Shown here in pieces: positions 58,081 to 58,229 of a stretch of DNA of 64,000 nucleotides. Each line of letters begins with the position of its first letter. The stretch's first letter is position 1. This DNA is from Escherichia coli (GTDB lineage Bacteria; Pseudomonadota; Gammaproteobacteria; Enterobacterales; Enterobacteriaceae), in the NCBI RefSeq assembly GCF_013122565.1, contig NZ_CP053258.1; one strand, given 5' to 3'. Under the pieces are notes generated by a model that saw only the letters and a list, made by a program, of their open reading frames with translations, was not told the origin of the DNA and searched no databases. The translations under genes and the position numbers were made by a program.

Positions 58081-58229
58081 GTTACGAATCCTTGAAAACT
58101 TGTCTCAGTCAGACCAGACAGTCACACACAGTGGAAGTGTGCTAAGTATAGCCCTGATTAAACATATTACGGGTAAGATCCCCCGCGATACTTACGCGGA
58201 ATCTTACCCTTATTTATCCATCACGGGAA

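What the first reader, a model, noticed from the sequence alone, without database searches (positions are those of the whole stretch)
58165..58210. Strong extended hairpin in the pyrH-frr intergenic region
GGGTAAGATCCCCCGCGATACTTACGCGGAATCTTACCC forms a long imperfect stem (GGGTAAGAT…ATCTTACCC with an inner CGCG…CGCG stem) in the 149-bp spacer between pyrH and frr. It is not REP-like and has no clean U-tract, so it is more likely a processing or attenuation structure than a simple terminator. It lies in conserved core sequence, so novelty is low.
Basis: seen in the sequence. Interest (0 to 1): 0.15.

Follow-up and report, generated by a model that had tools for sequence, protein, structure and literature searches.

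The report
Hairpin built on the frr promoter
The hairpin between pyrH and frr is real, but its first half is a working, conserved promoter of frr whose transcripts start inside the hairpin loop, so this is an ordinary promoter overlapped by a dispensable RNA stem-loop, and most E. coli strains, including K-12, carry a 145-base repeat inserted into it.

Summary
The palindrome exists at window 58171-58209. It is the longest local inverted repeat in the 64-kb window. On the transcribed (minus) strand it folds at -25.5 kcal/mol (z = -5.7).

Its 5' arm is the core of a sigma-70 promoter for frr:
- -35 TTCCCG, directly after the pyrH stop codon
- a 17-nt spacer
- -10 TAAGAT
- a GC-rich discriminator

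Published Cappable-seq data for O157:H7 EDL933, whose spacer is identical to the window's, put a primary start site on the first loop base (window 58193). K-12 data place one at the same base. This promoter layout is kept in 18 of 19 enterobacterial spacers.

The full hairpin can therefore form only in RNA reading through from pyrH. Pairing is kept in about 8 of 13 lineages, with two compensatory changes and a sense-strand wobble bias. There is no U-tract.

The site is not invariant core sequence. 3511 of 5426 complete E. coli genomes, K-12 included, carry a 145-nt palindromic repeat inside the hairpin; 1903 keep it intact.

My best guess, which is inferred, is a leaky terminator or 3'-end stabiliser for pyrH transcripts laid over the frr promoter. 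Novelty and interest are low.

The parts
58171..58209 (-). 39-nt palindrome. As sense RNA it is a stem-loop of 12 bp + 3 bp with a 7-nt loop, starting 20 nt after the pyrH stop codon.
58224..58229 (-). -35 element TTCCCG of the distal frr promoter, directly abutting the pyrH TAA stop codon.
   Evidence: bTSSfinder call in the EDL933 Cappable-seq supplement. TT[TC]CCG is kept at a fixed 17-nt spacing in 18 of 19 spacers.
58201..58206 (-). -10 element TAAGAT of the distal frr promoter. It lies inside the 5' arm of the hairpin.
   Evidence: It is TAATAT in K. pneumoniae and in L007.
58194..58200 (-). GC-rich discriminator TCCGCGT.
   Evidence: TCCGC is conserved after the -10 in most spacers.
58193..58193 (-). 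Distal frr transcription start (A), the first base of the hairpin loop.
   Evidence: EDL933 TSS 196104 in 8 of 8 conditions, with a spacer identical to the window. K-12 TSS at 192617 and 192616.
58171..58192 (-). Rest of the loop plus the 3' arm, equal to +2 to +23 of the distal frr 5' UTR. It is complementary to the -10 and discriminator.
58177..58179 (-). The 3 nt (ATC, sense) that are replaced by a 145-nt palindromic repeat in K-12 and in 3511 of 5426 E. coli genomes. The window carries the empty, ancestral state.
   Evidence: All outgroups lack the repeat.
58145..58150 (-). -10 element TATACT of the proximal, stronger frr promoter. Its TSS is at 58138.
   Evidence: EDL933 TSS 196159 in 8 of 8 conditions. 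K-12 TSS 192814, score 869. CTATACTTAGC is conserved across genera.
58174..58187 (+). Mirror-image -10 TAAGAT (58174-58179) on the opposite strand, with a weak antisense TSS at 58187, the last loop base.
   Evidence: EDL933 antisense TSS 196110(-) in 3 of 8 conditions: exp M9, exp acid and exp salt. Mapping.
58230..58955 (-). pyrH (UMP kinase), the upstream gene whose read-through RNA is the only RNA that contains the whole hairpin.
57523..58080 (-). frr (ribosome recycling factor), GTG start. It is the gene served by both promoters.

Best explanation
**Shown.** The palindrome is a composite feature.
- Its 5' arm and inner stem are the -10 hexamer (TAAGAT) and GC-rich discriminator of the distal sigma-70 promoter of frr.
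- That promoter's -35 (TTCCCG) begins immediately after the pyrH stop codon.
- Transcription starts on the first base of the hairpin loop, window 58193.
- The 3' arm is therefore simply the first ~22 nt of that frr 5' UTR.
- A second, stronger frr promoter (-10 TATACT, TSS 58138) lies 35 nt downstream of the hairpin.

**Inferred.** The complete stem-loop exists only in RNA that reads through from pyrH, tsf or rpsB. No space is left between the pyrH stop codon and the frr promoter, so a pyrH-distal stem-loop has to use the promoter sequence as one arm, and the 3' arm has evolved to complement it.

In read-through RNA the stem-loop most likely acts as a leaky, non-canonical terminator or pause, or as a 3'-exonuclease barrier. 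Either role would give some pyrH-ending transcripts and limit upstream transcription running over the frr promoters.

The role is non-essential. The structure is split by a 145-nt repeat in two thirds of E. coli and is absent from some related genera.
For: **Promoter**
- Cappable-seq TSS at EDL933 196104(+) in 8 of 8 conditions, with predicted -35 ttcccg and -10 taagat.
- The EDL933 and Sakai spacers are identical to the window's, and 196104 maps to window 58193.
- K-12 has a TSS at the same base: 192617 by Cappable-seq, and 192616 by SMRT-Cappable-seq with full-length frr transcripts.
- The layout stop codon / TT[TC]CCG / exactly 17 nt / TAAGAT or TAATAT / TCCGC is conserved in 18 of 19 distinct enterobacterial spacers, including lineages that have no 3' arm.

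**RNA-level hairpin**
- z = -5.7, and the longest local inverted repeat in the window.
- Arm complementarity beats 500 shuffles in E. coli, K. pneumoniae, Superficieibacter and Salmonella L220 (0 of 500). Salmonella L219 reaches 3 of 500, and L006 and L108 reach 5 of 500.
- Two pairs carry changes on both sides: G-C to U-A in Klebsiella and G-C to A-U in L006, L108 and L220. 78.5% of cells are paired, against 22-44% for the slid controls.
- The fold is more stable on the sense strand than on the antisense strand in 8 of 10 sequences, because the wobble pairs are G-U only in sense RNA.

**Read-through RNA exists**
- pyrH-frr, tsf-pyrH-frr and rpsB-tsf-pyrH-frr transcripts are seen in K-12, together with a tsf-pyrH variant that ends before frr.
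Against: - There is no U-tract after the stem in the sense direction. Only 3 U occur in the first 8 nt, and the scan flagged only a marginal 5-bp sub-stem. The tail is not conserved across genera.
- No 3'-end data were available for any strain with the intact hairpin.
- K-12 Term-seq lists no 3' end between pyrH and 192871, and K-12 pyrH transcripts read through into frr. K-12 has the disrupted allele, so this says little about the intact one.
- The 3' arm is missing in about 5 of 13 lineages, and the hairpin is split in 65% of E. coli. Any function is therefore dispensable.
- Covariation is modest: 20 of 500 shuffles reach the observed score. The alignment was also restricted to lineages that have the hairpin.
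Confidence: 0.55

Rival explanations
1. It is the efficient Rho-independent terminator of pyrH, making pyrH and frr separate transcription units.
For: A stable GC-containing stem-loop lies 20 nt after the stop codon. A terminator-like site was flagged on the minus strand at 58186-58169. K. pneumoniae has a better tail, UGAUUUUCAUU.
Against: The E. coli tail GUAAUAUGUUUAAUC is poor, and U-richness is not conserved in Salmonella or Superficieibacter. Read-through pyrH-frr transcripts are abundant in K-12. No 3' end is listed there in K-12 Term-seq, though K-12 carries the disrupted allele.
Confidence: 0.1
2. One reading: it is an RNA processing or attenuation structure that regulates frr.
For: RNA 5' ends do map inside the loop. 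The stem is conserved in several genera.
Against: Those 5' ends are enriched by Cappable-seq, so they are primary triphosphate ends, and a conserved -35/-10 sits at the right distance. frr transcripts from that start lack the 5' arm. There is no alternative-structure partner, and the distal 5' UTR folds unremarkably (z = -1.35). No Rfam match was found.
Confidence: 0.1
3. The RNA stem has no function. The palindrome is a by-product, either of a mirrored -10 that gives a face-to-face antisense promoter, or of neutral drift around a constrained promoter.
For: An antisense TSS is found exactly at the mirror position (EDL933 196110(-), window 58187 +), with -10 TAAGAT on the other strand, in 3 of 8 conditions. 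The hairpin is dispensable in 65% of E. coli and in several genera.
Against: Read directly from the sequences, the mirrored hexamer is not kept as a usable -10 outside E. coli: CAAGAG in L006, TAAGCG in L108, TAAGTA in L005 and TAATAA in Salmonella. Pairing nevertheless is kept, through G-U wobbles that only work in sense RNA. Complementarity is individually significant in six lineages.
Confidence: 0.2
4. It is a remnant of, or a structure-specific target for, the 145-nt palindromic repeat that occupies this site in K-12.
For: The repeat sits inside the hairpin in K-12. In K-12 the old 3' arm pairs with the repeat's left end. A second polymorphic copy, at pheM-pheS, lies just after another hairpin, the pheST attenuator.
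Against: All outgroup genera have the hairpin region without the repeat. The hairpin shares no sequence with the repeat core. All long alleles share a single junction, indicating one insertion event. The hairpin is single-copy. No target duplication could be defined.
Confidence: 0.05

Closest known systems
Sigma-70 promoters of translation-factor genes with a GC-rich discriminator (stringent-type promoters such as rrn P1; from general knowledge)
   Same: A -10 hexamer with A2 and T6, a 17-bp spacer, a start 8 nt after the hexamer, and a GC-rich discriminator (TCCGCGT). It drives a translation factor gene.
   Different: The -35 matches the consensus at only 3 of 6 positions. ppGpp/DksA control was not tested. 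The promoter is embedded in a palindrome and abuts the upstream stop codon.
Rho-independent (intrinsic) terminators
   Same: A stable stem-loop shortly after a stop codon, with an A-rich stretch upstream.
   Different: No U-tract follows in the sense direction, no mapped 3' end is available, and read-through is common in K-12.
Intra-operon stem-loops that protect upstream mRNA from 3' exonucleases (for example REP stabilisers such as malE-malF; from general knowledge)
   Same: A stem-loop between two co-transcribed genes. It could give the upstream gene its own 3' end and stability.
   Different: The sequence is unique and not a REP. No stability data exist. One arm doubles as a promoter.
Symmetry-driven bidirectional promoters (Warman et al. 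2021, recalled from memory)
   Same: Sequence symmetry places a -10-like hexamer on both strands, and start sites are seen on both strands.
   Different: Here the two -10 elements are 21 bp apart and face each other, and the starts are convergent and 6 bp apart. The described class has overlapping -10s and divergent starts about 18 bp apart.
Enterobacterial intergenic palindromic repeats (REP/BIME, ERIC/IRU, and the ~145-150-nt family that may be 'RSA')
   Same: An intergenic, palindromic, transcribed sequence.
   Different: The window hairpin is single-copy and shares no sequence with these repeats. It is the empty site of one such repeat, not a member.

Membership tests
Sigma-70 promoter | A -10 hexamer resembling TATAAT, with A at position 2 and T at position 6 | tested here: met
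   TAAGAT at 58206-58201(-). It is TAATAT in K. pneumoniae and L007, and conserved in 18 of 19 spacers.
Sigma-70 promoter | A -35 hexamer 16-18 bp upstream | tested here: inconclusive
   TTCCCG matches TTGACA at only 3 of 6 positions, so the consensus scan did not call it. Its sequence and its 17-nt spacing are nevertheless invariant across genera.
Sigma-70 promoter | A primary (triphosphate) transcript 5' end about 7 nt downstream of the -10 | tested here: met
   Published Cappable-seq: EDL933 196104 in 8 of 8 conditions, with an identical spacer. K-12 192617 and 192616.
Rho-independent terminator | A GC-rich stem-loop downstream of a stop codon | tested here: met
   -25.5 kcal/mol, starting 20 nt after the TAA.
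Rho-independent terminator | A U-tract immediately 3' of the stem | tested here: not met
   The tail is GUAAUAUGUUUAAUC, with 3 U in the first 8 nt. It is not conserved in Salmonella or Superficieibacter.
Rho-independent terminator | RNA 3' ends at the tract in vivo | not testable with these tools
   Only K-12 (disrupted allele) Term-seq could be read, and it lists no 3' end between pyrH and 192871. The EHEC Term-seq supplement is not held.
REP/BIME or other repeated palindromic element | Many dispersed copies per genome sharing a consensus | tested here: not met
   Exactly one place per genome in 1903 genomes. No other copy in the window.
The ~145-nt palindromic repeat family (possibly 'RSA') | Homology to the repeat core (…AGGCGTWATTGT…AAATAGCCT…) | tested here: not met
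   The window lacks the repeat. The alignment shows the hairpin only flanks it in K-12.
Curated cis-regulatory RNA (Rfam leader, attenuator or riboswitch) | A match to a covariance model | tested here: not met
   No hit at the hairpin even at E <= 10.
Transcription attenuator | Mutually exclusive terminator and antiterminator structures in the regulated gene's own leader | tested here: not met
   frr's distal transcript starts in the loop and lacks the 5' arm. The leader fold is unremarkable, z = -1.35.
Symmetry-driven bidirectional promoter | Divergent start sites from overlapping -10 elements | tested here: not met
   The starts at 58193(-) and 58187(+) are convergent, and the -10s are 21 bp apart. 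The family definition is recalled from memory.

The most novel reading that the evidence does not exclude
The stem-loop is a selected 'promoter-embedded insulator'. With no room between pyrH and the frr promoter, the 3' arm co-evolves with the -10 and discriminator, so that polymerases arriving from pyrH pause or terminate exactly on the frr promoter. The 145-nt repeat inserted at +14 in K-12 and two thirds of E. coli would then rewire pyrH-frr coupling and the frr 5' UTR. In that case the K-12 reference would not represent the species at this essential gene.
Probability: 0.2. Interest if true: 0.35.

Novelty: new member of a known kind. Interest (0 to 1): 0.17.

Why it matters
This matters only modestly.

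- **Annotation:** what looks like an RNA regulatory hairpin upstream of an essential translation gene is mainly a promoter. It is already visible in published start-site tables, with an optional stem-loop laid over it.
- **Caution on the reference strain:** transcript maps from K-12 (3' ends, UTR lengths) cannot be transferred to the 35% of E. coli, including O157:H7 and B2 strains such as 536, that carry the intact hairpin. K-12 has a 145-nt repeat at +14 of the distal frr transcript, giving a 255-nt 5' UTR against 113 nt.
- **If the stem-loop does limit read-through:** it would be a compact example of a terminator sharing sequence with the next gene's promoter.

Tried and rejected
- **Rfam.** Scans of the region and of the K-12 allele gave no match to the hairpin or to the repeat.
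- **Promoter and terminator consensus scan.** It missed the experimentally mapped promoters and flagged only a marginal sub-stem.
- **Genome-contig scan with PyrH.** It returned mostly distant Gammaproteobacteria and only five Enterobacteriaceae. In Pseudomonas-type genomes pyrH and frr are 8-9 bp apart, so they are not informative.
- **Exact look-up of E. coli PyrH.** It returned only E. coli alleles. Outgroups were then obtained through cluster members.
- **Literature.**
  - Nothing was found on the 'RSA' repeat name.
  - Shimizu & Kaji 1991 on the frr promoter is not held.
  - The Dar & Sorek and EHEC Sakai Term-seq supplements are not held.
  - No RNase III data exist for this spacer.
- **Ideas considered and rejected.**
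  - A 3-codon mini-ORF (ATGGATAAATAA) upstream of the stem is not conserved.
  - An anti-Shine-Dalgarno role for the 3' arm is not predicted by folding.
  - A simple target-site duplication for the repeat cannot be defined.

Full report
**Setting.** The window is E. coli chromosome: 5424 of 5426 complete genomes match at 99% identity or more. The genes rpsB, tsf, pyrH, frr, dxr and uppS all lie on the minus strand.

**Observation.** The quoted sequence lies at 58171-58209.
- On the transcribed strand it reads GGGUAAGAUUCCGCGUAAGUAUCGCGGGGGAUCUUACCC.
- It folds into 12 bp, a 1x1 mismatch, 3 bp and a 7-nt loop, at -25.5 kcal/mol. Shuffles average -11.5, giving z = -5.68, and 0 of 200 fold as well.
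- The + strand folds at -21.6 kcal/mol.
- A window-wide search for local inverted repeats returns only eight, and this one ranks first.
- It is single-copy in the window and in every genome that has it, so it is not REP-like.
- In the sense direction the stem is followed by GUAAUAUGUUUAAUC, which is not a U-tract. The consensus scan flagged only a marginal 5-bp sub-stem.
- Rfam gives nothing at E <= 10.

**The reference strain differs here.** In MG1655 the pyrH-frr spacer is 291 bp.
- The K-12 and window spacers share the first 50 nt and the last 96 nt.
- Between those, the window has ATC where K-12 has 145 nt.
- The extra DNA sits inside the hairpin, directly after …CGCGGGGG, and removes most of the 3' arm.
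- It belongs to a repeat family with 1-8 places per E. coli genome, median 5.
- It folds as a long imperfect palindrome and has no Rfam model.
- Other copies lie between pheM and pheS and between qseE and qseG.

Junction-specific 46-mers count 1903 of 5426 complete genomes with the intact hairpin. These include O157:H7 and UPEC 536. The K-12-type right junction is found in 3511 of 5426. All long alleles examined share one junction.

Every outgroup spacer lacks the repeat. The outgroups comprise Salmonella, K. pneumoniae, Superficieibacter, Franconibacter, Phytobacter, a Pseudescherichia-type group and several unnamed Enterobacteriaceae. The window therefore carries the ancestral, empty state, and 'conserved core sequence' is only partly true.

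**What is conserved, and why.** Across 19 distinct enterobacterial spacers, the 5' arm and what follows it (GGTAAGATTCCGCTTTA) are conserved in sequence. This holds even where no complementary 3' arm exists, which is not how a pure RNA stem behaves.

Reading it as DNA suggested a promoter: TTCCCG directly after the TAA stop codon, 17 nt, TAAGAT, then a GC-rich discriminator. That layout, with the 17-nt spacing invariant, is present in 18 of 19 spacers. TAAGAT becomes TAATAT in K. pneumoniae and L007.

Published data confirm the prediction.
- **K-12 Cappable-seq.** It lists primary start sites at 192617 (score 94), 192797 (score 40) and 192814 (score 869).
- **K-12 SMRT-Cappable-seq.** It lists full-length frr transcripts from 192616 to the frr terminator, and others from 192813.
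- **O157:H7 EDL933.**
  - Its spacer is identical to the window's.
  - Cappable-seq finds starts at 196104(+) and 196159(+) in all eight culture conditions.
  - The authors' own promoter prediction for 196104 is -35 ttcccg and -10 taagat.
- **Mapping to the window.**
  - The distal start is 58193(-), the first base of the hairpin loop.
  - Its -10 is 58206-58201 and its -35 is 58229-58224.
  - The proximal -10 TATACT is 58150-58145, with its start at 58138.

In K-12 the repeat sits at +14 of that transcript, so the UTR is 255 nt rather than 113 nt.

**Mirror-image start site.** The arms are mirror images, so the opposite strand also reads GGGTAAGAT. EDL933 shows a weak antisense start at 196110(-) in three of eight conditions: exp M9, exp acid and exp salt. 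Its predicted -10 is taagat, with a poor -35 at 19 nt. This maps to window 58187(+), the last base of the loop. The two starts are convergent and 6 bp apart.

**Is the RNA stem itself selected?** The hairpin cannot form in frr's own distal transcript. It can form only in read-through RNA from pyrH, tsf or rpsB. Such RNAs exist: pyrH-frr, tsf-pyrH-frr and rpsB-tsf-pyrH-frr transcripts are seen in K-12.

Evidence for selection on pairing:
- The 14-nt 5' arm finds a better partner in the native downstream sequence than in 500 shuffles (0 of 500) in E. coli, K. pneumoniae, Superficieibacter and Salmonella L220. Salmonella L219 reaches 3 of 500, and L006 and L108 reach 5 of 500.
- Two pairs change on both sides: G-C to U-A in Klebsiella, which accompanies TAAGAT to TAATAT, and G-C to A-U in L006, L108 and L220.
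- 78.5% of cells pair, against 22-44% in the slid controls.
- The fold is more stable on the sense strand than on the antisense strand in 8 of 10 sequences, by up to 9.9 kcal/mol, because the wobbles are G-U only in sense RNA.
- Read directly from the sequences, the mirrored hexamer is not a usable -10 outside E. coli: CAAGAG, TAAGCG, TAAGTA and TAATAA. This argues against selection for the antisense promoter.

Evidence against:
- The covariation signal is modest. 20 of 500 shuffles reach it, and the alignment was restricted to hairpin-bearing lineages.
- The 3' arm is absent in Franconibacter, Phytobacter, L007, L008 and L009.
- Two thirds of E. coli live with the arms separated by 145 nt.

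**Mechanism.** Shown: the region is the distal frr promoter, with its start in the loop.

Inferred:
- In read-through RNA the stem-loop, 20 nt past the pyrH stop codon, acts as a leaky, non-canonical terminator or pause, or as a 3'-exonuclease barrier.
- It is built on the promoter because no other space is available.

I could not test this. The only readable 3'-end data are from K-12, which has the disrupted allele. They show no 3' end between pyrH and 192871 and dominant read-through. The distal 5' UTR itself folds unremarkably (z = -1.35), so I see no attenuator or anti-SD role.

**Comparison with known systems.**
- It works like an ordinary sigma-70 promoter of a translation gene. The -10, the spacing and the mapped primary start are met; the -35 is weak.
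- It resembles an intrinsic terminator in stem and position but fails the U-tract criterion, so I do not file it as one.
- It is not a REP/BIME or a member of the 145-nt repeat family. It is that family's empty site.
- It is not a symmetry-driven divergent promoter in the described sense, because its starts are convergent.

**Verdict.** This is a real and statistically exceptional palindrome, but biologically ordinary. It is a known, mapped promoter overlapped by a dispensable 3'-UTR stem-loop at a site that is polymorphic in the species. Interest is low (0.17). It counts as a new, unannotated member of known kinds.

Noticed in passing
L001:3132-3276 (K-12 192631-192775); the corresponding empty site is window 58177-58179: A 145-nt imperfect-palindrome repeat is inserted inside the hairpin in K-12 and in 3511 of 5426 complete E. 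coli genomes. The family has 1-8 copies per genome and no Rfam model, and its terminal stems differ between copies but stay complementary. It may be the old 'RSA' repeat; that name is recalled from memory and I could not verify it.
   Followed up: partly
L002:389-534 (filled) versus L238 (empty), pheM-pheS spacer: A second copy of the same repeat, just after the pheST attenuator, is also polymorphic and absent from about 644 genomes. As at pyrH-frr, the event looks like 'AT replaced by ~146 nt' with no clean target-site duplication.
   Followed up: partly
window 58174-58187 (+): There is a weak antisense start site at the mirror position of the frr distal start (EDL933 196110(-), 3 of 8 conditions). 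It gives two convergent starts at the two ends of the 7-nt loop.
   Followed up: partly
window 58138-58170 (-): The stronger proximal frr promoter (TATACT, TSS 58138) has no recognisable -35 in E. coli. In several other genera a TTGNCA-like hexamer about 15 nt upstream is supplied by the 3' arm of a second small hairpin (GRCACC…GGTGYC). E. coli, Salmonella and K. pneumoniae lack that hairpin.
   Followed up: no
K-12 192871, equal to window 58081 (-): K-12 Term-seq (Adams et al. 2021 supplement) lists an 'orphan' RNA 3' end on the base just before the frr start codon, and another inside frr at 192996.
   Followed up: no
L001:1186-1295 (rpsB-tsf spacer of K-12); by offset about window 60016-60125 (-): A strong Rfam match to CssrA (RF02798, 136 bits, gathering score 93) lies between rpsB and tsf. 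The t44/tff RNA lies upstream of rpsB. I did not rescan the window itself.
   Followed up: no
L041-L058 and similar loci (Pseudomonas and relatives): pyrH and frr are only 8-9 bp apart in Pseudomonas-type genomes, against 130-175 bp in Enterobacterales. The internal frr promoters and the hairpin are therefore an enterobacterial elaboration.
   Followed up: no
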